Shown here piece after piece: positions 1,104-20,301 of a stretch of 32,000 nt of DNA. The notes beneath the pieces were generated by a model that did not search any database, was not told the DNA's origin, and saw only the letters and a program-made list of their open reading frames with translations. The stretch is taken from contig JAIXXZ010000112.1 of assembly GCA_027490465.1 (NCBI GenBank), positions 8,052 to 40,051 on the forward strand. Direction: 5' to 3'. Every line of letters begins with the position of its first letter. Position 1 is the first letter of the stretch. This stretch comes from Oxalobacteraceae bacterium (lineage in GTDB: Bacteria > Pseudomonadota > Gammaproteobacteria > Burkholderiales > Burkholderiaceae_D). A program made the translations under genes and the position numbers.

Positions 1104-1122
1104 AACAATTGTGTTGACTTTG

Positions 1123-1150
1123 TCTCAATAAATATATTGAGAATTTTTTG
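1123..1150 (+). terminator. Weak AT-rich hairpin plus T-run after the Wzy-like gene
   Basis: TCTCAATA (1123-1130) pairs with TATTGAGA (1135-1142) across a 4-nt loop, followed by ATTTTTTG. The stem is all A/T-rich, so function is doubtful. Confidence 0.3.
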
Positions 1151-1152
1151 AT

Positions 1153-2259
1153 ATGAAAATTTTACATTTCATTCTCGGCAAAGCCAACAAGTCACGGGCA
1201 AACGGGGTCAATCAGGTTGTTGCAGGTCTTGCAAAGTATTGTGCATCACGCGGTGTATCGACTCGTGTTATTGGAAAGGCGGAATCTGTCGAGCGAGAAG
1301 GTGAAGTTATCTCTCGGGATGGGTTTTCTGTTGAAGCCTATTCGGTTTGGGGGAAGCCATTACTACATGCTCTGACCGAGGCAATTAGTTGGGCCGATGT
1401 TGTTCATCTGCACGGGGTTTATTCCCCATGGAATCTGATGGTCGCACGCATGTGCGATAAAGCGCGCACGCCTTATGTTGTCACGCTTCATGATGGCCTC
1501 GCATCTGGGCGATCGCACGCGCGTGGAAAGTATAAAAAGTGGTTGTTTCACACTTTTCTACAACGTAGACATTTGGCAAATGCAGCTGGCGTGCATGTTC
1601 TGACGGAAGAGGAGGCAACGGACTTATATTCTGTAGCGCAACCAAAAAATATTTTTTGCATACCCAATGGCGTCGATCTCGATGATTACCCATGTCTAGG
1701 CGAACGCAAGTATGTGGAATCCCGAGAAGTCACCATTGGTTACTTGGGTCGTTTGTCCGTCGAGAAAAACCTTGAAGCGCTATGTGTTGCGTTCTCTTTA
1801 CTGAATAGAAGCCACAAAATGCGATTGATGTTGGCTGGACCGCCTTCTGCTTATGGTAAGTCATTATTGAATCGGTTTGCTGAGCACGGGGTAATTGGTG
1901 TCGGTGCCAAATTTGGTATTGAGAAATCTGAATTTATTAGCTCTCTAGATTTATTTGTTCATCCTTCCCTGTGCGACGTGTTCTCAATCGCTGGTATGGA
2001 AGTTATGGCTTTGGGAACACCGTTGTTAATCACGCGCACATCGAAGGCCAGTTACTTTTATGATCGGCGGGCCTTTTTTATGTCCGAGCCCACCGTATTC
2101 GGTTTAGAGAGGGGTTTGCGCAATGCACTAGAGCACCGGGCGGACTGGCCTATCATGGTTGCGAATGGTCGGCGTTTAATTGAAGAAAGGCTCAATTGGC
2201 GTGCCGCAGCTGATGACATGCTAGCTGCTTATTACGGTATTGTGGTGAAACATGTATGA
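1153..2259 (+). CDS. Glycosyltransferase, GT-B fold group 1 (GT4-like)
   Basis: 368-aa ORF. The C-terminal block DLFVHPSLCDVFSIAGMEVMALGTPLLITR resembles the donor-binding E-x7-E region of group 1 glycosyltransferases. The stop overlaps the next start (ATGA at 2256-2259). Confidence 0.8.
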   Translation: MKILHFILGKANKSRANGVNQVVAGLAKYCASRGVSTRVIGKAESVEREGEVISRDGFSVEAYSVWGKPLLHALTEAISWADVVHLHGVYSPWNLMVARMCDKARTPYVVTLHDGLASGRSHARGKYKKWLFHTFLQRRHLANAAGVHVLTEEEATDLYSVAQPKNIFCIPNGVDLDDYPCLGERKYVESREVTIGYLGRLSVEKNLEALCVAFSLLNRSHKMRLMLAGPPSAYGKSLLNRFAEHGVIGVGAKFGIEKSEFISSLDLFVHPSLCDVFSIAGMEVMALGTPLLITRTSKASYFYDRRAFFMSEPTVFGLERGLRNALEHRADWPIMVANGRRLIEERLNWRAAADDMLAAYYGIVVKHV

Positions 2260-3560
2260 AGCTTGAAGTAACTGAGTTAGTAAAAAGGTCGCTTGCAGAC
2301 GTAATGCCTGTATTAGGGCTGAGGGGGGCGGATGCGCACGCGCGAGAGGGGGGCGACCTTGATTTCATCGTCCCTCCCGGTAATGCGGTATCCGCGTGCA
2401 GATTAGTTGCGAAAGCTGCGCTGGCCGAAGGATGGTTTCCTGTGGGATTTCGAGACATTGGCTATCTCGCGCAGATCGTTCTCATCCGTCCGACAACGTT
2501 AGGTGACGATGATGCGTTGAAGATTGACTTCTTCGACGGTCTACGTTGGTACGGTGTTGGCGTAGACATTGCGGGTCACGCACTTTTTGACCGACTTTTG
2601 CCCTTGCGACGCGACGAGACGAAGTTGGCAGGTGCCGTAGGATTCATCCAGAAGAGTCTTATCGTTGGCCAATTAAGCGAGCGCGACTGGGTGCGAGTTG
2701 AGGAGTCGGGGGTCGATGTGAGCTATTTAGCCGAGACTGCACAATCACTTTCTCTGCCGATCACCCGCAGTCAGATCGAGGCGCATGGTGTAACAGGACT
2801 TGCCAAATGGCGTTTACGGGCAGCTTCGGGCGGTGCAAAAAATGGAATATCTGTAGTTGCATGGCTTTTTCAAGCCACTACCACACATCTCAAGTTTAAG
2901 TCCGGCTTTGGGACAAAGGCGGGCTTGATTCTGGGCATTTCCGGGCTTGATGGCTCCGGTAAAAGTACCCTTGTTGACAGGTTGGTACGCGCTATCCGCA
3001 AGGGTGGCGGAGAACAACCCCAGATCGTTCACTTACTGCCTGCCTGGATACCCATGCCGCACCAGCTTTTTAGACGCCGAAAAACTCAAAGCAACTACAC
3101 TCGCCCTTATTCAGAGCCACCGGTTTCGTCGCGAATAAATGGATGGTTACGATTAGGTTTTTACATCTGGGCCTTTACGCTCGCACGACTAGAACTTTGG
3201 TTGCAAAGTGGGAGAGGGCGATTGATCATTATGGATCGTAGCTTCCTCGATTTCGCTTCTGATTTGACACGCTCTCGAATACCGGCAAGACGCCTGCCCA
3301 ATTGGTTGCTGAATGTGTTGATGCCATATGGGCGGCTGTTCTTTCTGGATGCATCTCCCGAGGAAGTGGTAGCTCGAAAGGGTGAACTAACACTAGAGAA
3401 AGCTCGATCACTTCAAGCCAACTACCGCGAAACCTGCGGAAATATTGGTGCGACTTTGCTGAATGGTGATCGCGCTGCAGATGATGTTTTCAAAGAATTG
3501 CTAGGACACCTTTCGTTGGATTACTTGCAGCGAATTCAGGCCGCAGAGAGATGCCAGTGA
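2256..3560 (+). CDS. Two-domain protein: N-terminal pol-beta-type nucleotidyltransferase-like region fused to a C-terminal thymidylate-kinase-like P-loop domain
   Basis: 434-aa ORF. The N-terminus carries GGDLDFIVPPGN (a G..D.D minimal NTase-like motif). Around residue 230, a Walker A GISGLDGSGKSTLV is followed by IIMDRSFLDF, typical of dTMP-kinase-like folds. The gene is translationally coupled on both sides. Confidence 0.6.
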   Translation: MKLEVTELVKRSLADVMPVLGLRGADAHAREGGDLDFIVPPGNAVSACRLVAKAALAEGWFPVGFRDIGYLAQIVLIRPTTLGDDDALKIDFFDGLRWYGVGVDIAGHALFDRLLPLRRDETKLAGAVGFIQKSLIVGQLSERDWVRVEESGVDVSYLAETAQSLSLPITRSQIEAHGVTGLAKWRLRAASGGAKNGISVVAWLFQATTTHLKFKSGFGTKAGLILGISGLDGSGKSTLVDRLVRAIRKGGGEQPQIVHLLPAWIPMPHQLFRRRKTQSNYTRPYSEPPVSSRINGWLRLGFYIWAFTLARLELWLQSGRGRLIIMDRSFLDFASDLTRSRIPARRLPNWLLNVLMPYGRLFFLDASPEEVVARKGELTLEKARSLQANYRETCGNIGATLLNGDRAADDVFKELLGHLSLDYLQRIQAAERCQ

Positions 3561-4837
3561 AAGCCAGTGTGTCGAGTAGTGTTCCTTTTCGACAGGGGCA
3601 ATATAAGCCCTGGATTCTGATAGCTGCCTATGACGTTAGTATGGGTGAGTCAAGTGAGGGTCACGTGGCTTTCAGCGTCCTAAGTCACCTTAATAAGACT
3701 TATCGCATCATTTTGGTAACACGCAAGAATAATAAGAATCGATTGGAGTACGACCCTGTCTTTGCCTCTACTTGCCATGGTGTTTATCTGATTGGCTACG
3801 ATTTACCTAAATGGGCGAGCTGGTGGAAACGTGGCGCACGGTTCTATCAAGCTTATGCCTATCTGTGGCAAATGAGTTGGCCAACAGTACTGAGGGGCCA
3901 TACTCGCATATTAGAGTCTCTCCGGTTAATTCACATTCTTAACTTCCACAATGACAGCATCCCGTCTCTTGCCTGGCAGACTGGCATTCCAGTAGTCTGG
4001 GGACCAATCAACCACAACGAAATCATTTCATGCTGGAGAAAAAAATACTGGCCTATCAATATTTCGATTAAGCACGTTACTTCTTTTGCATTACGTCGCA
4101 TGCTCTGGAAGTTTGACCCTTTTTTGAGGGCCCATATTCGCCATAGCAGAGTAGTGCTTTCAGCGGGAGAATGGGTTGATCGACGTCTTGAAATTCCAGT
4201 CACCAATCGTACGATCCGACGTAGCCAACTTGGTGCAAGTGAGAGTGCCTTCCATACAGGTTTCGAGACCGCCGGAATAAGCAATGGAAGTACAAGGGAA
4301 CTGATCTGCGCCGGGCGCGTTGATTGGATCAAGGGTTTAGATATTGCGATCGAAGCTCTTGTTCTTTTACCCGAGGAGTATCGTTTAAGAATCGTTGGAA
4401 ACGGGCCCGCAGAGCCTAGGTTGCGTGCTTTGGCATCCCAGTTGGACGTAAGCTCCAGGGTGACCTTTCAACCGCCGGTTCCCCGTGATGCACTCTCAGC
4501 GCTTTATGAGCAAGCCGACTTGTTTCTTTTTACTTCAGCTGAAGTGGCAGGCTTAGTGTGGGTTGAGGCGCTGGCCAGTGGCTTGCCAGTGGTGGCGTTC
4601 GATGGCATGACAGAAGTGGCATTGGCGGCGCGCTATCTTCCTGGAATCCAATTGGCAGTTACCGGTCAAGGGCGTCTTGAGAACGTTGAAAATTTTTCTG
4701 TTGCAATCAAGATTGCTGCAGAGGCACCCCGTAATCCAGCCGTCCTCAGAGCTGCTGTGCTGAAACATTATGGATGGAACGAACTGTCTGCAACGATTAA
4801 CAACGCCTATCGTGTAGCAATGGAGGGGCTCCAGTGA
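3551..4837 (+). CDS. Glycosyltransferase, group 1 family
   Basis: 428-aa ORF. It overlaps the upstream gene by 10 nt. The C-terminal block ADLFLFTSAEVAGLVWVEALASGLPVVAFD matches the GT1 donor-binding region. Confidence 0.75.
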   Translation: MPVKASVSSSVPFRQGQYKPWILIAAYDVSMGESSEGHVAFSVLSHLNKTYRIILVTRKNNKNRLEYDPVFASTCHGVYLIGYDLPKWASWWKRGARFYQAYAYLWQMSWPTVLRGHTRILESLRLIHILNFHNDSIPSLAWQTGIPVVWGPINHNEIISCWRKKYWPINISIKHVTSFALRRMLWKFDPFLRAHIRHSRVVLSAGEWVDRRLEIPVTNRTIRRSQLGASESAFHTGFETAGISNGSTRELICAGRVDWIKGLDIAIEALVLLPEEYRLRIVGNGPAEPRLRALASQLDVSSRVTFQPPVPRDALSALYEQADLFLFTSAEVAGLVWVEALASGLPVVAFDGMTEVALAARYLPGIQLAVTGQGRLENVENFSVAIKIAAEAPRNPAVLRAAVLKHYGWNELSATINNAYRVAMEGLQ

Positions 4838-5922
4838 TCATCTTTGTTCACTTGCTCAACGACCGCTCTGGAAGCCCGCGTGTTCTTTGTTCCACCATTG
4901 CAGCTTTACGGCAAGAAGAAGACCGGTTGCGCTTATTCGTTGGCAGCGGTGGCTCAGGTTTCCTTAATGATGCAGGCATAGAAACCACACGTTACTGGTA
5001 TAGGCGCACCCCAATCCGCATATTAACCCTAGGAACATACCTGATCAGCCAGATAGCCTTAGTGATCCGGCTGTTTCGCACACAAGACATCGACCGCAGT
5101 GCACTGATCTACGTTAATACACTTCTGCCCTTCGGTGCGGCGCTTTATGGGTGGATGACCGGAAGGCGCGTCGTGTATCACTTGCATGAGGTCTCGGTGA
5201 GCCCCGTGCCACTCAGATGGTTTCTAACGGCCATTGCGCGCCATACTGCGCGAAGTCTGATTTATGTATCGGATTTCCATCGAAACTGCTTGCCGATTGC
5301 TGGCGTTCCGGCCAGAACAATTCACAACTCACTCGATGAGGATTTTCTTATACGTGCACGCGCTAGCCAGTATGCACATCGCCGTAATGGGCATTTTAAG
5401 GTGTTGATGCTTTCCTCGCTGCGCGACTACAAGGGGGTACCAGAGTTTTTGGCTTTAGCCGATTGTTTTGCTGACCGTGCTGATGTTTGCTTCGACCTAG
5501 TGCTGAATGATGACCAGTTTGCAATCAGTAGATATTTCGCGGCTAAGTCGATATCAAGTTATGTCACGATACATGCTCGCACCGACGATCCTGCATTGCA
5601 CTATGCGCAGGCAAGCCTAGTGCTGAATTTATCGAGGCCAGACCTGTGGGTGGAAACCTTTGGTCTCACCCTGCTCGAAGCGATGGCCTTTGGAGTACCG
5701 GTAATCGCACCGCCCGTCGGCGGACCATTAGAACTAGTGCGCGAGGGACATGAAGGTTTCTTGATCGACTGCCGCAATACCAACGAGCTGGTAAGTAAGG
5801 TTTCGCAACTTGCTGGCAACGATGTGCTATGCCTCACTATGTCTGAGGCAGCGCGTCGCAGGGCTGAATGCTTTTCCCCCTCCGTATTTGCAAAGGCAAT
5901 GCGCGATGTTATTAAAAAATAA
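4834..5922 (+). CDS. Glycosyltransferase, group 1 family
   Basis: 362-aa ORF. GTGA overlap with the upstream stop. Motif VETFGLTLLEAMAFGVPVIAPPVGGPLELVREGHEGFL is a classical E-x7-E region. Confidence 0.85.
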   Translation: MIIFVHLLNDRSGSPRVLCSTIAALRQEEDRLRLFVGSGGSGFLNDAGIETTRYWYRRTPIRILTLGTYLISQIALVIRLFRTQDIDRSALIYVNTLLPFGAALYGWMTGRRVVYHLHEVSVSPVPLRWFLTAIARHTARSLIYVSDFHRNCLPIAGVPARTIHNSLDEDFLIRARASQYAHRRNGHFKVLMLSSLRDYKGVPEFLALADCFADRADVCFDLVLNDDQFAISRYFAAKSISSYVTIHARTDDPALHYAQASLVLNLSRPDLWVETFGLTLLEAMAFGVPVIAPPVGGPLELVREGHEGFLIDCRNTNELVSKVSQLAGNDVLCLTMSEAARRRAECFSPSVFAKAMRDVIKK

Positions 5923-5943
5923 AGTTAACGAAAACGCTGTATC

Positions 5944-7035
5944 TTGAAGACGATATCAATACTGGGAACCGTTGGAATTCCTGCCTCGTACGGGGGATTC
6001 GAAACACTGGTCGAGAACCTTGCTCGGTATCATCAGGCGAATAGGCTGCCTACCAAGTTGGTCGTCTATTGCAGTGCGAAGAGCTATTCCGTGCGAGAAA
6101 AGTCCTGTTATGGTGCTGACTTGCGTTATGTTCGGCTTAACGCTAACGGCGTTTCCAGCATTGCATACGATATCGCCTCTCTTTTTTCTGCCGTTTGGCA
6201 GCGCAGTGACGTCATCTTGCTCTTGGGTGTATCAGGTGCAATTGCCCTGCCATTGGTTCGATTATTGTCTCGTTCATGTATCGTGACCAATATTGATGGC
6301 ATCGAATGGAAGCGGAAAAAGTGGAAGGGGCTAGCACGTTGGTTCTTGCGGCTTTCCGAGAAAATAGCCGTGATGTTTTCGCACGAAGTGATTGCCGATA
6401 ATGGTGGGATTGCTGCTCATGTTTCGAAAATTTATGGAAAGCAGTGTCATGTGATTGCCTATGGAGGTGATCATGCGGTCCAAGCTACACCAAGCCAATA
6501 TGTTGGCGAACAGTTGCCTTCACGTTATGCTCTGGCGCTTTGCCGCATTGAACCTGAAAACAATGTGGGCTTGATTCTTGAAGCATTTGCAAGGCACCCA
6601 AGTATGCCGCTAGTTTTTGTCGGGAACTGGAACAACAGTGAATTTGGACGTGAGTTGCGAGAGCGTTTTGGCGGAGTAAAAACCCTGCATTTGTTAGATC
6701 CAATTTATGAATTGGGTGTCCTCCACAGCCTGCGCAGCAAGGCAACGATTTATGTACATGGTCACTCTGCAGGGGGAACCAATCCGTCACTGGTGGAAAT
6801 GATGCACTTTGGTGTGCCTGTGCTGGCGTACGACTGCGTCTTTAATCGCTACACCACGGACAATCAGGCTTTATGGTTTAGCGATGCTGAGTCATTGCTG
6901 GCTGCGATCGCTTCATTGACCTCGGCGGTCGCCAAGCAAACAGGGCTTGACATGAAGCGTATTGCCGAAGGTCGGTATACCTGGCGGCATATTGGGGAAG
7001 CCTACTTCAGGCTGTTGCTGCAAAACGATCGATGA
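5944..7035 (+). CDS. Glycosyltransferase with DUF1972-type N-terminus (WbbL/rhamnosyl- or mannosyltransferase-like class)
   Basis: 363-aa ORF with a TTG start. The N-terminus ISILGTVGIPASYGGFETLVENL is characteristic of DUF1972 glycosyltransferases. The C-terminal block is VHGHSAGGTNPSLVEMMHFGVPVLAYD. Confidence 0.75.
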   Translation: MKTISILGTVGIPASYGGFETLVENLARYHQANRLPTKLVVYCSAKSYSVREKSCYGADLRYVRLNANGVSSIAYDIASLFSAVWQRSDVILLLGVSGAIALPLVRLLSRSCIVTNIDGIEWKRKKWKGLARWFLRLSEKIAVMFSHEVIADNGGIAAHVSKIYGKQCHVIAYGGDHAVQATPSQYVGEQLPSRYALALCRIEPENNVGLILEAFARHPSMPLVFVGNWNNSEFGRELRERFGGVKTLHLLDPIYELGVLHSLRSKATIYVHGHSAGGTNPSLVEMMHFGVPVLAYDCVFNRYTTDNQALWFSDAESLLAAIASLTSAVAKQTGLDMKRIAEGRYTWRHIGEAYFRLLLQNDR

Positions 7036-9203: not shown

Positions 9204-9770
9204 ATGGCCCAAGCAAAAACGTTAACGCAAGCAGAATTTGATCAAGTGATGCGGTACATTAGTACCAAGAAATTCGCACTTCGAAATCGAGTGATGTTCC
9301 TGATTAGTCATTGGTCAGGCATGCGTGTGGGTGAGATTGCCAGTCTCAAGGTGAAGGATATCCTCAATCCCGATGGCACGATCCGCGCAGAAGTACGATT
9401 GTTACCCGAGCAAACCAAAGGGCGCCACGCTCGAACTGTTTATCTACCTGCCAAGCTGCAAGAAGAGCTGCGTGCCTATATTCGCTGCCGCTGCATCAAC
9501 AGCGACATTGAACCGGTGTTTTACACCAGCGGTGGCAAGCCATTTACTGCCAACAGTTTATGCCAGCTATTTTTCTGGTTGTATCGGCGAGCAGGGATTG
9601 CAGGTGCCAGTAGCCATAGCGGTCGCCGTAGTTTTATCACAGCACTGGCAGCCAAAGGCATATCAGTTAGGGTGCTGGCGTCACTCGCCGGGCATAGAGA
9701 TATTTCGGTCACACAGAAATATATCGATGTGCATGACGACATGAAGAGAGCGGCGGTGGAACTAATATGA
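9204..9770 (+). CDS. Minimal tyrosine recombinase (phage-integrase-family catalytic domain only)
   Basis: 188-aa ORF. Catalytic signature seen: R in SGMRVGEIASL, H-x-x-R in SSHSGRRSFITALA, and H...Y in LAGHRDISVTQKYIDV. There is no N-terminal core- or arm-binding domain. Confidence 0.85.
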   Translation: MAQAKTLTQAEFDQVMRYISTKKFALRNRVMFLISHWSGMRVGEIASLKVKDILNPDGTIRAEVRLLPEQTKGRHARTVYLPAKLQEELRAYIRCRCINSDIEPVFYTSGGKPFTANSLCQLFFWLYRRAGIAGASSHSGRRSFITALAAKGISVRVLASLAGHRDISVTQKYIDVHDDMKRAAVELI

Positions 9771-13476: not shown

Positions 13477-14856
13477 CTATTTGGGCGGTGGCTTGCGCTG
13501 TTTTAAGCGCTCGTTGAAGTCTTTGGACACATCCTGGCTGATGACCACCATGGGCAGCGTCAATCCCGTGCTCATCTCGATCAGCTGCATGATGTTGTTG
13601 GGCATTTGAGCGGCCATCAAAGCGCGGATTTGGGCAGCTTGGTCGGATCCGTCGCCATCCACGGTACCCGCAAACTGCTTGGCCTTCATCAGTGGCGTTA
13701 GGTGGCTGTAGTGCTTGGTGATCATGAGTACTGAGGTACCCATTTGCTCAGCCAGATCGTGGATCGGGATGCTCTCCAAAAGCCGTTGTGTGGCGTAGTA
13801 GTGACGAAGACTGTACAAGCTGCGCTCTTTGCCAGTCACCGGGCAGATCAAGAGACCAGATTCCTCCAGCATTTGCCGGAAGGGTTTATTAAAGTTGTCA
13901 GGCAGGTTGCCCGAGGGCATACGGAAGACCCGTTTGTCGATTTTTTTCTTTAACAATTGCTGAAGCGATAGATGAGCAAGATCAGGGCTCATCTGTCGAA
14001 GTTTTTCTAGCAGCAGCCAGCAGCTATTGTGCGCTACGAAGTTTCTCGCCCCGCGTTTGCCTTTTTGTAGCCGGAAATGCAGTATGGGTTGACCATCACG
14101 CATCTCCACATCGATGTGCCGCCATTCGAGGAATTCTGCCTCTGTGCCAGGGCGCATGCCTGTGGCAGCCATGAAGGGCACATACACAGACAGCAGGGTT
14201 CGCAAGGTGCGAGTGATAGCGGTGCGGCCATCATCGATGAATTTGGGGAAGTAGGCGATTAAAGTTTCCAGCTCTTCTTGGCTGAATTCTGCACGACGAT
14301 CGCTATCGCCACCGGTGTTCTTTGTAGCAGGGCGCTGTCTCTCACCCATGTAGCCGCGCTCGATGGCTTCATCCAACACAAGATTGAATGCAGCATTGTG
14401 ATTGTTCTGTGCGCTGCCGGATAGCTCGCGTCCCACTTTGTCACGGCGCCAGCGATGAAATTCCGATATCAGTGCTGGTGTGATGCAGTCCACGTTGAAC
14501 TTGCCGTAGAACGGGATCAGGTAAAGCTTGATGGCTGAGATGTAGTCTTTGGCACTGGGTTTCGCAGTACCTGCTTTGGCCTCATCTTCCAGTCGATGCT
14601 GAACGATTTCAGCGATGGGTTTGAACTTCTTGCTGATAACAGGTCTGCCTTCTTCATGATCGAAGGTAGCTTTCATCCAGATACGTTCTGCGATCTTCTT
14701 GGCTTTGTCGAGGTCAGTGGTGTTTGTGCTGACTCTGAACCATTTTTTGACGCCATCTATCTTGTAATGCGCTTGCCATTTCCGACTGCCGTCACGCATC
14801 ACTAAGCGCAGCTGCTCGGTGCGTAAAACGAGGGTTTGAGAGGAGAGGACTCGCAT
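13477..14856 (-). CDS. int: Site-specific tyrosine integrase (phage integrase family)
   Basis: 459-aa ORF. It has an N-terminal arm-binding-like segment (RDGSRKWQAHYKIDGVKKWFRVST) and catalytic blocks ATGMRPGTEAEFLEWRHID, YSLRHYYATQ and MITKHYSHL. It sits next to the tRNA-derived att core. Confidence 0.9.
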   Translation of the reverse strand: MRVLSSQTLVLRTEQLRLVMRDGSRKWQAHYKIDGVKKWFRVSTNTTDLDKAKKIAERIWMKATFDHEEGRPVISKKFKPIAEIVQHRLEDEAKAGTAKPSAKDYISAIKLYLIPFYGKFNVDCITPALISEFHRWRRDKVGRELSGSAQNNHNAAFNLVLDEAIERGYMGERQRPATKNTGGDSDRRAEFSQEELETLIAYFPKFIDDGRTAITRTLRTLLSVYVPFMAATGMRPGTEAEFLEWRHIDVEMRDGQPILHFRLQKGKRGARNFVAHNSCWLLLEKLRQMSPDLAHLSLQQLLKKKIDKRVFRMPSGNLPDNFNKPFRQMLEESGLLICPVTGKERSLYSLRHYYATQRLLESIPIHDLAEQMGTSVLMITKHYSHLTPLMKAKQFAGTVDGDGSDQAAQIRALMAAQMPNNIMQLIEMSTGLTLPMVVISQDVSKDFNERLKQRKPPPK

Positions 14857-14930: not shown

Positions 14931-14944
14931 TAAGAAGTTAAATT

Positions 14945-14971
14945 AAAAGCAAGCCCTAAGTGCTTGCTTTT
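14945..14971. terminator. Bidirectional hairpin terminator immediately 3' of the tRNA fragment
   Basis: AAAAGCAAGC (14945-14954), 7-nt loop, GCTTGCTTTT (14962-14971). A GC core is flanked by an A-run and a T-run. Confidence 0.55.
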
Positions 14972-14982
14972 AAAAGGATTTT

Positions 14983-15027
14983 TGGCTCCCCGACCTGGAC
15001 TCGAACCAGGGACCTGCGGATTAACAG
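14983..15027 (-). other. 3' 45 nt of a tRNA-Asn(GUU) gene (anticodon loop to CCA), i.e. an att core. The 5' half of the tRNA is absent.
   Basis: The reverse complement reads CTGTTAA-TCCGC-AGGTC-CCTGG-TTCGAGT-CCAGG-TCGGGGA-G-CCA. This gives the anticodon loop with GTT, the T-arm and the acceptor 3' strand. The sequence 5' of the loop (GCTTG) cannot pair with TCCGC, and no D-arm or acceptor 5' strand follows. Confidence 0.8.
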
Positions 15028-15053
15028 CAAGCCAGGCGCGTGGAAAAATGTTT

Positions 15054-15110
15054 AAAATCAATTTATTACAGCAACAAAATCAATTTGTGTAATAAACCGT
15101 GTAATTGATT
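15054..15110. repeat. Cluster of short repeats right of the att core
   Basis: - AAAATCAATTT occurs at 15054-15064 and 15076-15086, with an inverted AATTGATT at 15103-15110.
- TTATTACA (15063-15070) is inverted relative to TGTAATAA (15088-15095).
- GTGTAAT occurs at 15087-15093 and 15099-15105. Confidence 0.6.
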
Positions 15111-15111
15111 C

Positions 15112-15134
15112 AAAAGTTGCATAATGCAACTTTT
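15112..15134. repeat. Perfect 23-bp palindrome (11-1-11) containing AGTTGC/GCAACT
   Basis: AAAAGTTGCAT-A-ATGCAACTTTT. It lies about 190 bp upstream of the 15322 ORF. Confidence 0.7.
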
Positions 15135-15261
15135 CCAGCAAAACACGCAAATTTGGGGTCGGTGTCCGCCATTTTAAGGTCTAAAAACCCAAATCTTAGA
15201 GCTTGTTAATCTGTTCGAATCAAGGAGCGAAAATACATTTAGAAAACTTTGCGCTTAATGT

Positions 15262-15290
15262 TTGACCTTGTTGAGTGAGAGTGTGACTAT
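15262..15290 (+). promoter_or_regulatory. Possible sigma70-type promoter for the 15322-16580 operon
   Basis: TTGACC (15262-15267), a 17-nt spacer ending in TGT, and GACTAT (15285-15290). By-eye match only. Confidence 0.3.
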
Positions 15291-15321
15291 CATGTTCAAA
15301 AGATTCTGAAATTGGATTGAT

Positions 15322-16158
15322 ATGGCAACCTTTGAGTTATTTCGGTACCAACTGCTTCCCGCATCCCAGGAGCATCAGCAGGATTTATTTGGTGAATCTC
15401 TGACGCTTGATCAGATCAAAGAAAAAAAGAATGAAATTTTCTGGGGGCTATTACAAGAAGGTGCATTGTTCAACTCAGAGAAACTACTACAGAAAACGCT
15501 TTTTTCAGATGGGTACTGGTTTTCAATAAAGCTTGCACCTAAGCGCAAAACCGTTATCAATAAACCTGATTTCAGAAGTGAATCGGTAGAAAATTGGCCA
15601 CACATTACAGTGTTCATAAATAACGATCCTACAGTACAAATCATTGGCGTTTCACGGAATCAACGTGCTTTTAAAGACTCGATTTCAGTAGTTCGTACAC
15701 TGGAAAAAAGAATCAGTAGGCCACTAAGAGATCGCGGACTTACAGTTCAATTTCAGAGCATATACGAGCAAACTGAGTTTTGGCAGCTAATGGAGCGGCA
15801 GCGTGGCCGAGTGGAGAGAGTACGTTTTGAGATGATCTCGCCGAACATGGCAAACATTTCTGGAGTGTTGAAGGTGGATTTGCGGCGACTAAATCAAGAG
15901 TCCAACTCTCAGAAAACATCACTTGAATTAGAGGCTGTAGCAGGCTCGTCACTTCAAATTGATCAATCTGACGGGTTAATTTCGAGTTGTGTAGATTATT
16001 CAGCTAACGGTGGTGGTGATATCAAAGTGAAAATTAAAGGCTTTAAAAAGACAATTCGAACATCTACATCAGTTAGAACGATTGAAGCTGATGAAATTAT
16101 TTTCGAGGATGCTAATTGTGAATCTTTAGATCTTCTGCTCAAAGGTGTACTAAAGTGA
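15322..16158 (+). CDS. Hypothetical soluble protein (278 aa), first gene of a two-gene operon
   Basis: Long ORF in low-GC DNA. Its stop overlaps the GTG start of the next gene (GTGA at 16155-16158). No nucleotide-binding or nuclease motif recognised. Confidence 0.75.
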   Translation: MATFELFRYQLLPASQEHQQDLFGESLTLDQIKEKKNEIFWGLLQEGALFNSEKLLQKTLFSDGYWFSIKLAPKRKTVINKPDFRSESVENWPHITVFINNDPTVQIIGVSRNQRAFKDSISVVRTLEKRISRPLRDRGLTVQFQSIYEQTEFWQLMERQRGRVERVRFEMISPNMANISGVLKVDLRRLNQESNSQKTSLELEAVAGSSLQIDQSDGLISSCVDYSANGGGDIKVKIKGFKKTIRTSTSVRTIEADEIIFEDANCESLDLLLKGVLK

Positions 16159-16580
16159 TTTCTTGGTTCCGAAACATTTTTATCTATCTGGTTTGCGCTA
16201 ATGCTGCAACTGGATTTCTAAATTGGATGGGTTCGCCACTGATCTCTGATCTATCAAAGAATCTCACAGCTATCGTATTAGCTTTGCTTGCTATAAATGT
16301 TCAGACAACTGCTGTGATCGCCGTAAAGCTTCGCGATATTCTTGATAAATCCGGTGGAAATGCCAATGCAACGATTGAACAGTTTCGATTGGCGATCATT
16401 GAGCAAGCTGTACTCTTATTGCTTGCCTTGTTTCTTCAAGGAACAATTGGTGCTCAGTCCTTTCAACTCTCACCTTTAACTCTTAGTATCTGCTGTTTGT
16501 TTATATTTTTTGCAACTGTTCATATTTTTCTTGATACGTCCATCGGACTGCTCATAGCATTATTTCCTGAAAATACCTGA
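16155..16580 (+). CDS. Small integral membrane protein (141 aa, about 4 predicted TM helices)
   Basis: Hydrophobic stretches fall at roughly residues 6-24, 37-57, 83-103 and 108-137. Translationally coupled to the upstream ORF. Confidence 0.7.
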   Translation: MISWFRNIFIYLVCANAATGFLNWMGSPLISDLSKNLTAIVLALLAINVQTTAVIAVKLRDILDKSGGNANATIEQFRLAIIEQAVLLLLALFLQGTIGAQSFQLSPLTLSICCLFIFFATVHIFLDTSIGLLIALFPENT

Positions 16581-16643
16581 TTCGAACTTTGATTTTGAAT
16601 CAGAGTATTTTGCGGGACTCTCCCGCACCTAGTCGAACTAATT

Positions 16644-17444
16644 TCAAAGATTTAATCCGTAAGGTGCAAAGAACTTAGCCCATCGATCTGAGTCATACAT
16701 CTCACCATCAATGCTAGCGTCAAACATCTCACGGATCACTTTGACCGCTTCAACATTAGGTTTCGGTGGTAATCGCGAGCCGAGATTTTTAAGTCCGAAC
16801 TTATAAACTGCTTCTCGTTCAGTGCTACTGAGGGCTGACTCTTTGAATGCCCAATACGATTGGTCATAGTTGGCGTAACCACTTTTTTCAGTTTTTTTAA
16901 TAGTGAAGTCCATCCCTCGTTCGATGTCGCAGGGAGACTCTAGTAGGTCTCTGTGCATCAGCATGTTTAGCACTAGGTTGTGAATATGTGGGCCAATGAT
17001 GAACTGACGAATTGGATTGTTGGGAGCATCTGATTCACGAAATGGTGATTCGCGGACGAACCCTTGATATAAGTAGCTACGCTTTTTCCAATAGTGTCGC
17101 GCCATTTCTTCAAGGGTTGGATCTTTCATCCATGTTCTAACTTCTTGAAGAACTGGACATTCTTCGCCGTACATCTGCATGCATGGGACCATAACTTTTA
17201 GAGGTTTAATTTCAGTTTTCCCTTTGATGCCAGCAAATGGAAGCTTGATCATGTCTCGCTCAACCCAAAAAAAAGGGTTGTCAGTGTTTCTATCAGGAAG
17301 GAAGCGAAGTGTTGCCGTCGCGTTTAGTGCAATTTCCCAATGCTGATATACGGATGTATCTGTACGAGATTTTGAAACTAACTTTGCTAATGCAGGATTC
17401 TTTGCAGTTAACAAGTTACGAATTTTTTCGAGGGAATTAGTCAT
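16644..17444 (-). CDS. Phage T4 gp32-like single-stranded DNA-binding protein (core domain only)
   Basis: By-eye alignment to T4 gp32 (ours vs T4):
- ATATLRFLPDRNTDNPFFWV vs [21 protein letters not shown]
- GEECPVLQEV vs YDSCPVCQYI
- KKRSYLYQGFVRESP vs KRKTSYWANILVVKDP
- GMDFTIKKTEKSGYANYDQSYW vs [22 protein letters not shown]. Confidence 0.85.
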   Translation of the reverse strand: MTNSLEKIRNLLTAKNPALAKLVSKSRTDTSVYQHWEIALNATATLRFLPDRNTDNPFFWVERDMIKLPFAGIKGKTEIKPLKVMVPCMQMYGEECPVLQEVRTWMKDPTLEEMARHYWKKRSYLYQGFVRESPFRESDAPNNPIRQFIIGPHIHNLVLNMLMHRDLLESPCDIERGMDFTIKKTEKSGYANYDQSYWAFKESALSSTEREAVYKFGLKNLGSRLPPKPNVEAVKVIREMFDASIDGEMYDSDRWAKFFAPYGLNL

Positions 17445-17649
17445 ATAGTTCGTTTTTGATATGGTGCGGCGGGAGGGAATTGGCCAGAAAATGGCTTTGT
17501 GAAGCGAGCATATACGGCGCTACATGTAAAAAAGTGGCACGTGCCGTTGTGTAACTGATTTTTAAAACGCGTTAGAAAAACTAAAGTGAAAGCCTAGTAA
17601 TCCTGCATTGTCAGCACAGCGCATGATGACCTAAGTTTCAGTCTGTTAA

Positions 17650-18906
17650 ATGCTGAAAATTTTTCCTATGGTCGCCACGCTGAATCAATCTGCCGGATAT
17701 GCATTTTCTTCCCGAACCTATCCGCTGAAGGTCTACGCCGGGCCTGACGCGCTGGAGTCACTGCCCGATGAATTAATGCGCAATGACGCACAACGCGCGT
17801 TGATCTTGTGTGGACGCAGCGTGTACGAGCGATCTACTCTCACGCAGCATATTTCCGCACTATTGGGCAGCCATCTTGCGGGTATATTTCCGAACGTTTC
17901 CGAGGGTGCGCCGAGTGAATGCATCGAAGCAGCCGCCAAGATGGCGGACGAATTAGGTGCGGATGCGCTGATTGCGATTGGTGCAGGCAGCGTGATCAAA
18001 GGTGCGCGCGTGGTCGCTATGTTGATGGGTGAGAAACGACCGCTTCTTGATATGGCGACCAGACACGTTGATGGTCAAAAGCCCGTCACCCAAAAACTGC
18101 TCGCGGCTAAGGTGCCGATTTTCAATGTGCTGACCTCGCCAACGTCGGCGCAGAACCGAGGTGGGTCTGCAGTGCGGCATCACGGCGAGGTTCATCATTT
18201 GGAGTTCTTTGATCCAAAAACCAGACCGAGAGCCATCTTTTGGGACAGCACGGCCTTGGCGACTGCGCCTGTTTCGCTGGCACGGTCGACCAGTTTTGAA
18301 ACGTATTGGTGGGCGCTGATGTGCGTGGGTGCTGTCGAAACAGCCAACCCTTTAGTTCAGGCCAGTCGATATCAGGCCTGGCGGCTGGCGCGCAATGCTT
18401 ACCCGCGTCTGCTTGAGCCCTCGGATCATGCGGCGCGAATTGATTTATGCGCGGCCTCTTTGCTGCAGAACCGAGACGAGGAGGACGGAGGCAAGCCTTT
18501 GACATGTCATGTCTTGGTTCGAGTCGCCTATGCAGTCGCTGTCGCCATCTTCAATAGCTACCCTGGCATCACCCAGTCGCACGGCTATGCTGGTTTGGCG
18601 CCTGCCGTAATCCGGCATCTCGGACATCTTTGCCCCGATGTGACGACCGCAATCGGTGCAGCACTGGACTTGCAGGTTCGCGTCGATGATGCGCAGCTCG
18701 GCGAGAAGGTCGCCAACGCGGTTCAGACACACTTCGACACCCTCGGTTGGCATAAGCCGCTCAGTGCGATCGTGATACCCATGGATCACGCACCGGTTTT
18801 ACTCAAGTTTGCATTGAAGAATTTCAACGCAAATCATGATCGCTTTCTCGATGAGCATGCCGATCTCATTCTCGTTGCGATCAAGGACGCGATCAGCTTG
18901 CGCTAA
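17650..18906 (+). CDS. Iron-containing alcohol dehydrogenase-family protein (divergent). Alternative start at 17668.
   Basis: 418-aa ORF. Carries a Fe-ADH-like glycine block LIAIGAGSVIKGARVVA and His-rich HHGEVHH. Family assignment is moderate. Confidence 0.55.
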   Translation: MLKIFPMVATLNQSAGYAFSSRTYPLKVYAGPDALESLPDELMRNDAQRALILCGRSVYERSTLTQHISALLGSHLAGIFPNVSEGAPSECIEAAAKMADELGADALIAIGAGSVIKGARVVAMLMGEKRPLLDMATRHVDGQKPVTQKLLAAKVPIFNVLTSPTSAQNRGGSAVRHHGEVHHLEFFDPKTRPRAIFWDSTALATAPVSLARSTSFETYWWALMCVGAVETANPLVQASRYQAWRLARNAYPRLLEPSDHAARIDLCAASLLQNRDEEDGGKPLTCHVLVRVAYAVAVAIFNSYPGITQSHGYAGLAPAVIRHLGHLCPDVTTAIGAALDLQVRVDDAQLGEKVANAVQTHFDTLGWHKPLSAIVIPMDHAPVLLKFALKNFNANHDRFLDEHADLILVAIKDAISLR

Positions 18907-18910
18907 TCGT

Positions 18911-19810
18911 TTACAGACTATCGGGGCGCCTTATTTCCTGCAAAATCCAGTCGCGAAAAAGCGCAAAGGCTTCGCTGACGGGGCGTGCGGAAGACCAGCC
19001 CAGGTAGTAACCATTTTTACCTCGCACCCTGATATCAAAAGGTGCGATGAGGGTACCCGAATCGAGGTCGGATTTGATGTAGGCGTGTTGAACCAGTGCG
19101 ATGCCGACGCCATCAATTGCAGCCTGAATCGCGAGAGAAGAACTGCCAAATGACAGGCTGTGCGTCGGTTGCAAATCGGGCTCGCCGGCTTGCGTCAACC
19201 AGGCCTTCCAGTAATCGGCCCGCGGCACTGACTTGAGCAATGTGAAATTGATCAAATCAGCAGGCTTCTCGAGAGGTGGTCCTCCCGCCAGAAGGGACGG
19301 ACTGCAGACAGGCGTAAATTCGTCATCGAACAGGCGCACACCACTGACCCCGGAGGGAAGGCTGCTGCCTACCCATGAGGCCATATCGACATCTTCTGCC
19401 TCTAGTTCTACCGCCCTGAAGCTCGTCATGATCTGGATATCCAGGTCCGGATGGGCGCCATGAAATCGTGCAAGCCGTGGCATCAGCCATTTCTCCGCCA
19501 GCGTCGGCAACAGCGTTAGCTTGATGGTGGATTTGCTGCGCTTTCTGGTGATCGAGTCGAGCGCAACACTGATCCAGTCCAGCGCTTGCGTCAATTGAGG
19601 ATGTAATAACAGACCGGCATCGGTGAGCTCGATGGCACGTCCTCTTCTCTGAATCAGCGAAACCCCAACGCTTTCCTCTAAAAGCTTGACTTGTTGGCTG
19701 ATAGCGCCCGGCGTAACGCACAGCTCCATGGCAGCCTTGGAAACACTGAGATGTCTTGCCGTTGCCTCGAAGGCGCGCAAGCCGAGTAATGGCAGATGAG
19801 ATCTTTGCAT
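18911..19810 (-). CDS. LysR-family transcriptional regulator (GcvA/AmpR-like subgroup)
   Basis: The N-terminal HTH LPLLGLRAFEATARHLSVSKAAMELCVTPGAISQQVKLLEE is typical of this family. 299 aa. Divergent from the 19921 operon. Confidence 0.9.
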   Translation of the reverse strand: MQRSHLPLLGLRAFEATARHLSVSKAAMELCVTPGAISQQVKLLEESVGVSLIQRRGRAIELTDAGLLLHPQLTQALDWISVALDSITRKRSKSTIKLTLLPTLAEKWLMPRLARFHGAHPDLDIQIMTSFRAVELEAEDVDMASWVGSSLPSGVSGVRLFDDEFTPVCSPSLLAGGPPLEKPADLINFTLLKSVPRADYWKAWLTQAGEPDLQPTHSLSFGSSSLAIQAAIDGVGIALVQHAYIKSDLDSGTLIAPFDIRVRGKNGYYLGWSSARPVSEAFALFRDWILQEIRRPDSL

Positions 19811-19845
19811 CGCTCGATTTTAGCGTAACTAAATATATCGAGCAG

Positions 19846-19862
19846 AAATCATGCGTTGATTT
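19846..19862. promoter_or_regulatory. Candidate LysR-type operator in the divergent intergenic region
   Basis: Inverted repeat AAATCA-TGCGT-TGATTT between the LysR gene and the catabolic operon. By-eye only. Confidence 0.25.
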
Positions 19863-19920
19863 ATGGGTTCTCAACTCCTAAAGTCAGCTTCATTCCAGAA
19901 GGCGTTCAGAGACAGCGAAA

Positions 19921-20301
19921 ATGAAAATCACAAAACGACTCAGTAGCCACATTAGCAAGACACCACATGGATTGGCGCTGCTGGCAAGCCGCAGCCGTGA
20001 TGACGTCAATTGGCAGTTTCCGCCAGCAGAATTCACACTGGGTGATGTGCCGGATCAGGAAAGCGTGTTGAGTACCCGCGGTGTTCTCTACACCTACAGC
20101 ATTGTTCACGTTGATCGCGAGCGCGGTCCCTATGCATTAGCCATGGTGGATTTTGAGCCAGACGTTCGGGTTTTCGGCCCCATGATTTACGAGCCCGGGA
20201 AAGAGCCGCCGCTGGGCGCGACAATGGAAGTGACAGCGTATGCGTTGAAAGACGGGTCGGAAGACTATGCGTTTCGACAGTCGACAGGTAGCGCAGCATG
20301 A
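19921..20301 (+). CDS. DUF35-type OB-fold protein (thiolase partner) lacking the usual zinc-ribbon cysteines
   Basis: 126 aa. OB-fold block GVLYTYSIVHVDRERGPYALAMVDFEPDVRVFGPM. The stop overlaps the start of a thiolase-like gene (ATGA). No Cys anywhere in the protein. Confidence 0.65.
   Translation: MKITKRLSSHISKTPHGLALLASRSRDDVNWQFPPAEFTLGDVPDQESVLSTRGVLYTYSIVHVDRERGPYALAMVDFEPDVRVFGPMIYEPGKEPPLGATMEVTAYALKDGSEDYAFRQSTGSAA

What the first reader, a model, noticed from the sequence alone, without database searches (positions are those of the whole stretch)
16644..17444. gp32-like SSB with a degenerate zinc site and no acidic C-terminal tail
The protein aligns by eye with T4 gp32 across the N-terminal region and the OB-fold core (RFLP block, CPV block, KKRSY block, GYANYD block). 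Two hallmarks differ.
- Zinc site: the T4 ligands are His64, Cys77, Cys87 and Cys90. Here I find Cys88 and Cys96, but Leu99 in place of the last Cys (CPVLQ vs CPVCQ), and no obvious His equivalent.
- C-terminus: the protein stops at residue 266 (...WAKFFAPYGLNL). It lacks the long Asp/Ser-rich C-terminal domain that T4 gp32 uses to recruit replisome and recombination partners.

A core-only, possibly zinc-free gp32 on a bacterial island suggests a repurposed ssDNA binder rather than a replication SSB. The start codon also lacks an SD.
Basis: partly seen in the sequence, partly recalled or inferred. Interest (0 to 1): 0.7.

Follow-up and report, generated by a model that had tools for sequence, protein, structure and literature searches.

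The report
Tail-less phage SSB captured by islands

Summary
ORF 16644-17444(-) encodes a 266-aa protein with a T4 gp32 fold. It keeps only two of the four zinc ligands (Cys88, Cys96; Leu99 replaces T4 Cys90; there is no His64 equivalent). It ends at the edge of the core with no tail.

- The degenerate zinc site is not island-specific. The whole phage family (PHROG 1192) shares it, including tail-bearing SSBs that sit beside TerL, UvsX and UvsY.
- The protein is not core-only. It keeps a conserved N-terminal segment, so it resembles the laboratory truncate gp32*I.

Tail loss is the distinctive trait. All homologues at 66% identity or more (about 35 loci, from Burkholderiales and Methylophilaceae MAGs and metagenomes) are 264-281 aa. 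They form one clade (100/100 bootstrap) nested inside 320-356-aa phage SSBs. They are under purifying selection (dN/dS about 0.12), and none was found in the scans of IMG/VR viral contigs. They lie in defence-rich islands, usually 0.5-4.4 kb upstream of a tRNA-Asn 3' fragment.

My preferred function is untested: a competitor or dominant-negative SSB that interferes with phage replication. The window copy has lost its native Shine-Dalgarno and promoter region and may be poorly expressed.

The parts
16644..17444 (-). gp32-family SSB gene, 266 aa: N-terminal segment plus OB-fold core, with no linker or tail. Cys88 is at 17181-17183, Cys96 at 17157-17159 and Leu99 (the T4 Cys90 position) at 17148-17150.
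   Evidence: Purifying selection.
17445..17452 (-). The 7-8 nt of the gene's native 5' leader that remain. The island/core junction lies at 17452/17453. The native Shine-Dalgarno (GGAG) and the divergent SRAP gene seen in relatives are missing.
   Evidence: Window 20000..17453 is 99% identical to the L025 and L023 core flank. Window 17451..14979 is 92.5% identical to L013. Sequences at the junction. No promoter-like site on the minus strand in this stretch.
16577..16627 (.). Hairpins between the convergent 141-aa gene and the SSB gene, probably transcription terminators.
   Evidence: Terminator-like hairpin at 16577-16603. The GC hairpin GCGGGACTCTCCCGC at 16613-16627 was read directly from the sequence.
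15322..16158 (+). 278-aa protein of unknown function. It is the first gene of a two-gene cargo cassette lying between the SSB gene and the tRNA fragment.
   Evidence: No Pfam, PADLOC, PHROG or NCBIfam hit. 98 homologue clusters, all ~204-344 aa (mostly ~275-290 aa) and without any described function (all but one lack a Pfam hit). The same cassette lies next to the SSB gene in L013 and L031.
16155..16580 (+). 141-aa hydrophobic protein, probably membrane-bound. Its start overlaps the stop of the 278-aa gene.
14983..15027 (-). tRNA-Asn 3' fragment of 45 nt, running from the anticodon loop to CCA. It is att-like and sits on the same strand as the SSB gene, downstream of it.
   Evidence: Sequence read. 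One copy in the window. ARAGORN and Rfam find no intact tRNA. The same fragment lies 0.5-4.4 kb downstream of the SSB gene in 15 loci.
13477..14856 (-). Tyrosine integrase (459 aa) that follows the tRNA fragment directly. It most likely belongs to a neighbouring island in tandem.
   Evidence: Weak Pfam matches to Phage_integrase and SAM-like domains. Orthologues occupy the same position in L006 and L028, and a different integrase does so in L033.

Best explanation
Shown:
- The gene encodes a gp32-fold ssDNA-binding protein.
- It descends from the replication/recombination SSB of large (jumbo-type) phages.
- A single lineage of that SSB was captured by genomic islands of Burkholderiales and Methylophilaceae bacteria.
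- It lost the roughly 65-residue linker, acidic patch and conserved C-terminal tip (..DILAMIRNRK).
- It has since been kept intact by purifying selection as a stand-alone gene near the tRNA-Asn att end of defence-rich islands.

Inferred:
- It keeps 88 core positions that are also at least 90% conserved in the phage clade, including the WKKRSY strand, plus the conserved N-terminal segment. It probably still coats ssDNA cooperatively.
- Without the tail it cannot recruit polymerase, helicase, UvsX or UvsY.
- By analogy with T4 gp32*I, it should also lack the tail's self-inhibition.

Most likely role: a competitor or dominant-negative SSB. During infection by phages that use a related SSB, it would occupy or co-assemble on phage ssDNA and stall replication and recombination. 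That would make it a single-gene exclusion or defence factor.

In this window the copy has lost its native Shine-Dalgarno and promoter region, so its expression is uncertain.
For: - Fold and family.
- Length dichotomy: every homologue at 66% identity or more is 264-281 aa and stops after FAPYGL. Every homologue at 57% or less is 321-356 aa and carries the tip motif. All 79 homologue ORFs in the IMG/VR loci carry tails; the one under 300 aa is cut at its N-terminus by a contig end.
- Phylogeny: the short clade is monophyletic in 100 of 100 NJ bootstraps. It is sister to one clade of phage SSBs and nested in the wider phage family.
- Purifying selection: median dN/dS 0.12 over 233 pairs.
- No tail remnant downstream.
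- Phage context of the long clade: TerL, tail tube, UvsX-like and UvsY-like neighbours. Atu_ph07 has the TerL and SSB part of this order, with the flanking genes annotated as hypothetical.
- Absence from viruses: the best IMG/VR identity is 56%. The signature LLESPCDxERGM has 0 hits in 2.9 M viral contigs but 34 hits in the short-clade loci.
- Hosts: Burkholderiales, Limnohabitans and Methylophilaceae MAGs.
- Defence-type neighbours: SIR2-HerA, DndF-like or type II REase, GajB-like UvrD, DpdF-like, an AriA/NsnB-like ATPase, BrxR/WYL, SNF2-NOV_C, MmeI-type, SLFN_AlbA_2, and GIY-YIG with a methylase.
- Core and N-terminal conservation.
- Behaviour of gp32*I: it stays cooperative, associates with ssDNA faster than full-length gp32, destabilises dsDNA more strongly, and lacks the domain that contacts partner proteins (PMC12893549; PMC5892887).
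Against: - There is no functional evidence of any kind.
- No PADLOC model matches. Placement in defence islands is only guilt by association.
- The fixed position and orientation next to the att fragment, with variable cargo in between, is what one expects of a backbone gene of the mobile element rather than a defence cargo gene.
- Uniformly low dN/dS shows no arms-race signature.
- The N-terminal segment has no T4-type LAST motif, so cooperativity and co-assembly with phage SSB are assumed rather than shown.
- The window copy lacks a Shine-Dalgarno and a promoter.
- Two relatives (L038 and L042) are frameshifted.
Confidence: 0.4

Rival explanations
1. Island housekeeping. The protein serves the mobile element itself. 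It would coat ssDNA formed during the island's excision-replication, transfer or establishment in a new host. Plasmid and ICE-borne ssb genes do this, for example ssb with bet/exo and rumAB in SXT/R391 elements (my own knowledge).
For: - Constant position and orientation 0.5-4.4 kb upstream of the tRNA-Asn att fragment in 15 loci, with variable cargo inserted between, as for a backbone anchor gene.
- Recurrent nearby SRAP, S24 peptidase, Y-family polymerase and Cho genes, that is ssDNA and damage-tolerance functions.
- Adjacency to tyrosine integrases in L014, L015, L021 and L022.
Against: - No replication initiator, primase, relaxase or other backbone gene is conserved with it. Everything upstream is mosaic.
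- An SSB that supports replication normally needs its partner-recruiting tail, and that is exactly what was lost.
Confidence: 0.22
2. Satellite tool. The islands are hitchhikers of large phages, and the captured SSB helps the island parasitise or redirect the helper phage's replication machinery for its own spread.
For: - tRNA/tmRNA-integrating islands with a tyrosine integrase, defence cargo and no transfer genes have been shown to be transduced by a jumbo phage (PMC12595487).
- The gene comes from jumbo-type phages.
Against: - No other satellite hallmark (packaging, capsid-size redirection or a replication origin module) was seen.
- The described I55-type islands carry no such SSB.
- Without a tail the protein cannot recruit helper enzymes.
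Confidence: 0.12
3. Integrase cofactor. The protein acts as a recombination directionality or att-site accessory factor. Precedent: the gp32-like OB-fold SSBs that moonlight as RDFs for serine integrases (TG1 gp25 and phiC31 gp3).
For: - Precedent in PMC11795197.
- The gene lies at the att-proximal end, opposite the integrase. In a circularised element it would flank attP and face the int gene. AlpA-type factors occupy that end in the I55-type islands.
Against: - No sequence relationship to the Gp3-like RDF family: hhalign probability 0.15%.
- The local integrases are tyrosine recombinases, whose RDFs are typically small DNA-bending proteins (my own knowledge).
- The integrases after the att fragment most likely belong to a different, tandem island.
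Confidence: 0.06
4. Silent passenger in this genome. Whatever the family does, the window copy is a transcriptionally or translationally dead allele kept only by recency. It was left behind by a rearrangement that fused it to the core flank.
For: - The junction lies 8 nt upstream of the ATG. The native GGAG and the whole upstream region are missing, and there is no promoter-like site on that strand.
- Two relatives are already frameshifted.
Against: - The ORF is intact. Window versus L013 gives dN/dS 0.105.
- The identical protein occurs in two other assemblies.
- Read-through or a non-consensus promoter cannot be excluded.
Confidence: 0.15

Closest known systems
T4 gp32*I (residues 1-253: N-domain plus core, with the C-domain removed by proteolysis or recombinantly)
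   Same: - Same fold.
- Same domain content: an N-terminal segment and an OB-fold core, with no C-terminal partner-binding domain.
- gp32*I stays cooperative, associates with ssDNA faster and destabilises dsDNA more strongly than full-length gp32.
   Different: - gp32*I is a laboratory or proteolytic product. This protein is a naturally tail-less, selected gene in bacteria.
- About 20% identity to T4 gp32.
- No LAST motif at the N-terminus.
- Only 2 of the 4 zinc ligands.
PHROG_1192 SSBs of large phages, for example Agrobacterium phage Atu_ph07 gp107 (YP_009611772.1, 333 aa), the Pseudomonas PA5oct group and the Klebsiella RaK2 group
   Same: - 43-49% identity over the whole core; HMM E=1e-49.
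- Same two-Cys remnant of the zinc site and the same WKKRSY strand.
- The metagenomic sister clade is 52-57% identical.
   Different: - The phage proteins carry a 60-90-residue linker, an acidic patch and a conserved tip, and sit beside TerL, UvsX and UvsY.
- The island clade has none of this and was not found in the scans of IMG/VR.
TG1 gp25 and phiC31 gp3 recombination directionality factors (Pfam Gp3-like, PF18897)
   Same: The paper describes them as OB-fold SSBs, with zinc-site-bearing T4 gp32 the closest such structural match, working in a non-replicative, moonlighting role next to an integration module.
   Different: - No detectable sequence similarity.
- They are predicted to retain a zinc-binding site.
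- They partner with serine integrases, not tyrosine integrases.
Plasmid and ICE-borne bacterial-type SSBs (PF00436 family)
   Same: ssDNA-binding proteins carried as accessory genes of mobile elements.
   Different: - A different fold family: homotetrameric SSB with an acidic tip. No Pfam SSB match here.
- Those proteins keep their partner-binding tails.

Membership tests
gp32 family (Pfam PF08804, T4 gp32-like SSB) | Sequence match to the family model at or above the curated threshold | tested here: inconclusive
   25.9 bits against a gathering score of 26.8, E=1.2e-5. A profile of the family reaches T4 and RB69 gp32 at E=2.5e-5. Some close homologues carry a precomputed PF08804 hit.
gp32 family (Pfam PF08804, T4 gp32-like SSB) | gp32 OB-fold core structure | tested here: met
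   AF2 model with pLDDT 78. The only significant PDB matches are 1gpc, 2a1k, 2atq and 8gme, with TMt 0.61-0.69 and E from 2e-9 to 5e-8.
gp32 family (Pfam PF08804, T4 gp32-like SSB) | His-Cys3 zinc site (T4 H64, C77, C87, C90) | tested here: not met
   Only the C77 and C87 equivalents are present (Cys88 and Cys96). The C90 position is Leu99. The H64 position is Leu68 or Ala71. Metal content cannot be tested here.
gp32 family (Pfam PF08804, T4 gp32-like SSB) | N-terminal cooperativity domain with the LAST motif (KRKST) | tested here: inconclusive
   An N-terminal helix-forming segment is present and conserved (L5, R9 and L12 invariant), but it has no KRKST motif. The internal WKKRSY strand aligns with T4 KRKTSY. 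Cooperativity was not measured.
gp32 family (Pfam PF08804, T4 gp32-like SSB) | Disordered acidic C-terminal domain that recruits replication and recombination partners | tested here: not met
   The protein ends at the core boundary. No remnant lies downstream.
PHROG_1192 (large-phage SSB) | HMM match over the full core | tested here: met
   E=1.3e-49, residues 1-258 against profile positions 1-250 of 326.
PHROG_1192 (large-phage SSB) | Encoded in a phage genome within the replication/recombination module, with a linker and the ..DILAxIRxRK tip | tested here: not met
   The context is a bacterial island. There is no tail. 0 hits in IMG/VR for the clade signature.
Known anti-phage defence systems (PADLOC-DB v2) | Match to any defence-protein model | tested here: not met
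   No family at E<=0.1. Neighbours in related loci do match defence models.
Gp3-like recombination directionality factors (PF18897) | Sequence or profile similarity to phiC31 gp3 | tested here: not met
   hhalign probability 0.15%. gp3 itself matches PF18897, and the query does not.
Decayed T4-like prophage remnant | Relaxed selection, truncation scars and other phage gene remnants nearby | tested here: not met
   dN/dS 0.12. Uniform length in about 35 loci. No tail remnant. Only integrase hits and two PHROG families of unknown function in the window island, with no phage structural or replication genes.

The most novel reading that the evidence does not exclude
A bacterial island has domesticated the SSB of its own predators into a single-gene immunity factor. 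The tail-less, self-assembling protein co-polymerises with or outcompetes the phage SSB on ssDNA. It thereby blocks recruitment of UvsX, UvsY, polymerase and helicase, and so poisons replication of large phages. This would be a prokaryotic counterpart of dominant-negative, virus-derived restriction factors.
Probability: 0.3. Interest if true: 0.8.

Novelty: new variant of a known kind. Interest (0 to 1): 0.55.

Why it matters
SSB tails are the hubs that organise replication and recombination. A naturally tail-less, selected gp32-family protein living in bacteria rather than phages is a ready-made experiment on what an SSB does when it can bind DNA but recruit nothing.

If it interferes with phage replication, it would add a simple defence principle: a captured viral protein used as a dominant-negative. 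It would also point at large phages of abundant lake bacteria, which are hard to study.

The work also corrects an assumption. The His-Cys3 zinc site is not a hallmark of the gp32 family. A large phage branch replicates with only a two-Cys remnant or with none.

Tried and rejected
- PADLOC, NCBIfam and Pfam gave no functional label beyond gp32.
- Rfam and ARAGORN found no RNA gene or intact tRNA in the window or in any related locus.
- I searched for a second att copy or direct repeat upstream of the gene that would define a mini-element. None was found.
- I searched upstream regions for CTG-N10-CAG SOS-type boxes, because of the SRAP, S24 and Y-family polymerase neighbours. None was found.
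- The RDF idea has no sequence link to phiC31 gp3.
- I considered that short-clade residues H155, H164 and C172 form a new metal site replacing the lost zinc site. This is weakened because the tail-bearing Atu_ph07 SSB also has His and Cys at the corresponding places. The geometry could not be checked because model coordinates are not exposed.
- The plasmid collection gave only one distant hit (42% identity, a 476-kb Skermanella replicon), so there is no plasmid route.
- I found no conserved partner gene. The neighbours SRAP, C1 (about 99 aa), C7 (133 aa) and the integrase each occur in only a subset of loci.
- Six literature searches found no description of a tail-less gp32 homologue in bacterial islands.

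Full report
**1. What is at the coordinates**

The ORF 16644..17444 on the minus strand is real. It starts with ATG, is 266 aa long and ends ...WAKFFAPYGLNL. It is a gp32-family protein:
- Pfam gp32 (PF08804) matches at E=1.2e-5, with 25.9 bits against a gathering score of 26.8.
- PHROG_1192 'single strand DNA binding protein' matches at E=1.3e-49 over residues 1-258.
- T4 and RB69 gp32 crystal-structure sequences are hit at E=2.5e-3 by the single sequence and at E=2.5e-5 by a family profile.
- An AlphaFold2 model built on a 36-sequence alignment has mean pLDDT 78 and pTM 0.73. Only the first 27 or so residues are of low confidence.
- The only significant matches of that model in the PDB are the gp32 core structures 1gpc, 2a1k, 2atq and 8gme, with TM 0.61-0.69 and E from 2e-9 to 5e-8.

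**2. Zinc site**

In the 1gpc chain numbering, chain index plus 21 gives the T4 residue. I checked this on C77, C87 and C90 in the printed alignment. The alignments give these equivalences:

| T4 ligand | Residue here |
|---|---|
| C77 | Cys88 |
| C87 | Cys96 |
| C90 | Leu99 (CPVLQ versus CPVCQ) |
| H64 | Leu68 (single sequence) or Ala71 (profile) |

This is not a peculiarity of the island copy, however:
- Across 36 relatives that include tail-bearing phage proteins, Cys88 and Cys96 are invariant, Leu68 is invariant and Leu99 is at least 90% conserved. Position 71 is variable (A, Q, H, S, Y, N, T).
- The SSB of the isolated jumbo phage Atu_ph07 reads VPCMEMYKEPCPII.
- More distant phage members have lost one or both cysteines: P0218, P0248 and P0262.

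A whole phage branch of the gp32 family thus lacks the canonical His-Cys3 site. Whether the two-Cys remnant still binds metal cannot be decided here.

**3. The tail**

The homologue search (3957 hits) splits cleanly in two:
- Every sequence at 66-90% identity is 264-281 aa and stops just after the core motif F(A/S)PYGL.
- Every sequence at 57% identity or less is 321-356 aa. These carry an Ala/Pro-rich linker, an acidic aromatic patch (PPF or W followed by D/E-x-D-D) and a conserved tip, ..KPSSQRAEDILAMIRNRK.

Further checks:
- In IMG/VR the top 80 loci gave 79 homologue ORFs with a median length of 331 aa. The only one under 300 aa is cut at its N-terminus by a contig end, and 69 of the 79 have the tip motif.
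- tblastn with phage tails finds no linker or tip remnant downstream of any short-clade gene.
- The short proteins keep the N-terminal segment, with L5, R9 and L12 invariant in both clades. The architecture is N-segment plus core, which is the layout of the classical truncate gp32*I and not of the bare core.

**4. Evolution**

- At 50% clustering the short forms are a single cluster among 671 detectable relatives, and nearly all the others are 300-400 aa.
- An NJ tree of 77 sequences over 237 core columns recovers the short clade as monophyletic in 100 of 100 bootstraps. It sits on a stem of 0.23 substitutions per site. It is sister to one clade of tail-bearing sequences from viral contigs and nested in the wider phage family.
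- Pairwise Nei-Gojobori dN/dS among 23 short-clade genes has a median of 0.12 (range 0.07-0.33). Window versus L013 gives 0.105.
- Between the short clade and its sister, 88 positions are at least 90% conserved and identical. Only 12 are fixed differently, and five of those lie in residues 155-172.
- Two copies, L038 and L042, are frameshifted.

This is one capture followed by tail loss and long-term maintenance. It is not decay.

**5. Where the two forms live**

The long form sits in phage genomes. In L009 the order is tail tube, TerL, a virion protein, the SSB, a UvsX-like recombinase and a UvsY-like mediator. Atu_ph07 has TerL, a hypothetical gene, the SSB and another hypothetical gene in the matching positions. 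The best isolated-phage relatives are all jumbo phages:
- Atu_ph07, 47% identity.
- The PA5oct group, 49%.
- Phosso, 47%.
- The RaK2 group, 43%.

The short form was not found in viral collections:
- The best IMG/VR identity is 56%.
- The clade signature LLESPCDxERGM has 0 matches in 2.9 M viral contigs, against 34 matches in the short-clade loci used as a positive control.

In the GTDB species genomes the short form occurs only in three MAGs: a Burkholderiales bacterium, a Limnohabitans sp. and a Methylophilaceae bacterium. A neighbouring window gene has a 96%-identical homologue annotated as coming from a Burkholderiaceae bacterium.

**6. Island context**

In the window, a 40% GC block spans about 14.9-17.6 kb within 53-56% GC DNA. 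It holds three things:
- the SSB gene;
- a convergent two-gene cassette of 278 aa and 141 aa;
- a 45-nt tRNA-Asn 3' fragment (anticodon loop to CCA) at 14983-15027 on the same strand as the SSB gene.

A tyrosine integrase follows the fragment directly.

The same fragment lies 0.5-4.4 kb downstream of the SSB gene in 15 loci, and different cargo fills the interval in different loci:
- the 278-aa and 141-aa pair;
- a DpdF-like gene with a GajB-like UvrD;
- SLFN_AlbA_2 with GIY-YIG and a methylase;
- a 406-aa protein of unknown function.

Many contigs break just after the fragment, as expected of a repeated att sequence. Beyond the fragment there is either an integrase (window, L006 and L028 with one family; L033 with another) or core-like genes (L036 and L032). 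This fits the fragment being an attR, with islands stacked in tandem. No intact tRNA-Asn was captured in any locus, so the islands' far ends remain undefined.

The upstream neighbours are mosaic. They include:
- SRAP, present in 6 loci;
- a 99-aa and a 133-aa protein of unknown function;
- integrases;
- S24 peptidase, Y-family polymerase and Cho;
- defence systems: SIR2-HerA, DndF-like or type II REase, an AriA/NsnB-like ATPase, BrxR/WYL, SNF2-NOV_C and MmeI-type (PADLOC confirmation).

**7. The window allele has lost its expression signals**

Window 20000..17453 is 99% identical to the core flank (LysR and Fe-ADH) of L025 and L023. Homology to the SSB modules of L013 (92.5%) and L025 (85.6%) starts at 17451. 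The island/core junction is therefore 8 nt upstream of the ATG.

Relatives carry AAACCGGAGCTnGAACTGTATG and a divergent SRAP gene at that position. The window has neither, and no promoter-like site is found on that strand.

The ORF is nevertheless intact, and the identical protein occurs in two other assemblies.

**8. Mechanism**

Established for T4:
- The N-domain gives cooperativity.
- The acidic C-domain both contacts replication and recombination partners and folds back to restrain DNA binding.
- gp32*I remains cooperative, associates with ssDNA faster and destabilises dsDNA more strongly (PMC12893549; PMC5892887).

Transferring this to the island protein is an inference. It should be an unrestrained, self-assembling ssDNA coat that cannot recruit anything. 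Three observations point the same way:
- its phage origin;
- its absence from the phage collections searched;
- its residence in defence-rich islands.

On that basis I favour a competitor or dominant-negative role against phages that use related SSBs (confidence about 0.4).

The main rival is a backbone function for the island itself. That rival is favoured by the gene's constant att-proximal position. It is disfavoured by the lack of any co-conserved backbone genes and by the loss of the tail. Two further precedents make leads but are unsupported by sequence:
- jumbo-phage-transduced islands (PMC12595487);
- gp32-like SSBs that moonlight as serine-integrase RDFs (PMC11795197).

phiC31 gp3 is unrelated to this family by profile comparison.

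**9. Verdict**

- The zinc argument is set aside, because the degenerate site is ancestral to the family.
- The tail loss in a host-borne, selected clade is the real finding.

This is a new variant of a known kind of protein. It has a testable and potentially interesting function, but no functional evidence yet.

Noticed in passing
window 15322-16580 (+): A two-gene cassette: a 278-aa protein and an overlapping 141-aa hydrophobic protein. It has no Pfam, PADLOC, PHROG or NCBIfam match. The 278-aa protein has 98 homologue clusters, ~204-344 aa (mostly ~275-290 aa), in Burkholderiaceae, Vogesella, Telluria, Acidithiobacillus and Caminibacter. The cassette sits in the variable slot between the SSB gene and the att fragment, and does so in L013 and L031 too. 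It is a candidate uncharacterised defence or abortive-infection pair.
   Followed up: partly
window 14983-15027 (-) and 13477-14856 (-): A 45-nt tRNA-Asn 3' fragment (anticodon loop to CCA) with a terminator hairpin at 14943-14973, followed directly by a tyrosine integrase. There is no intact tRNA in the window. The same order (fragment, then integrase) occurs in L006, L028 and L033, which suggests islands stacked in tandem at a tRNA-Asn hotspot.
   Followed up: partly
window 17452/17453; L025 5782/5783: Two strains with 99%-identical core flanks share exactly the same island/core junction nucleotide but have different island-side sequence. In the window the SSB ATG is 8 nt away. In L025 and L023 a 3'-truncated SRAP gene comes first, then an SSB gene that is 85.6% identical. 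The junction may be a recombination hotspot. This is unexplained.
   Followed up: partly
long-clade phage SSBs, e.g. P0046-P0120, L098-L177, L180:6004-7005: The tails of these phage SSBs end in a conserved, rather basic amphipathic tip (..AEDILAMIRNRK, or DLIAQLKARQ in Atu_ph07), preceded by an acidic aromatic patch. T4 and E. coli SSB instead have a purely acidic tip. This is probably an uncharacterised partner-binding motif.
   Followed up: no
L013 6679-9915; L023, L025, L035 and L006: A recurrent cluster of SRAP (YedK-like), S24 peptidase, Y-family polymerase (IMS) and Cho-like nuclease genes lies beside the SSB gene in related islands. It looks like a damage-tolerance or mutagenesis module carried by the islands.
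   Followed up: no
window 12-7035 (+): A run of six co-oriented genes, four of which (1153-2259, 3551-4837, 4834-5922 and 5944-7035) match glycosyltransferase families (GT4, GT1, DUF1972), with GC rising from 0.38 to 0.52. It is probably a surface-polysaccharide locus next to the island region.
   Followed up: no
window 9204-9770 (+): A 188-aa ORF that matches only the catalytic domain of tyrosine integrases (Pfam E=1.7e-27; PHROG_216). It is a truncated or minimal recombinase inside the neighbouring island. Homologues (cluster C9) occur in L014 and L026.
   Followed up: no
L038 2420-3213; L042 2142-2938: Two short-clade SSB genes are split by frameshifts near residue 60, so the gene is occasionally lost.
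   Followed up: no
residues 155-172 of the protein (window about 16929-16982): Five of the twelve substitutions that distinguish the island clade from its sister phage clade cluster here: H155, M161, H164, L168 and C172. The tail-bearing Atu_ph07 SSB also has His and Cys at the corresponding places, so the meaning is unclear.
   Followed up: partly
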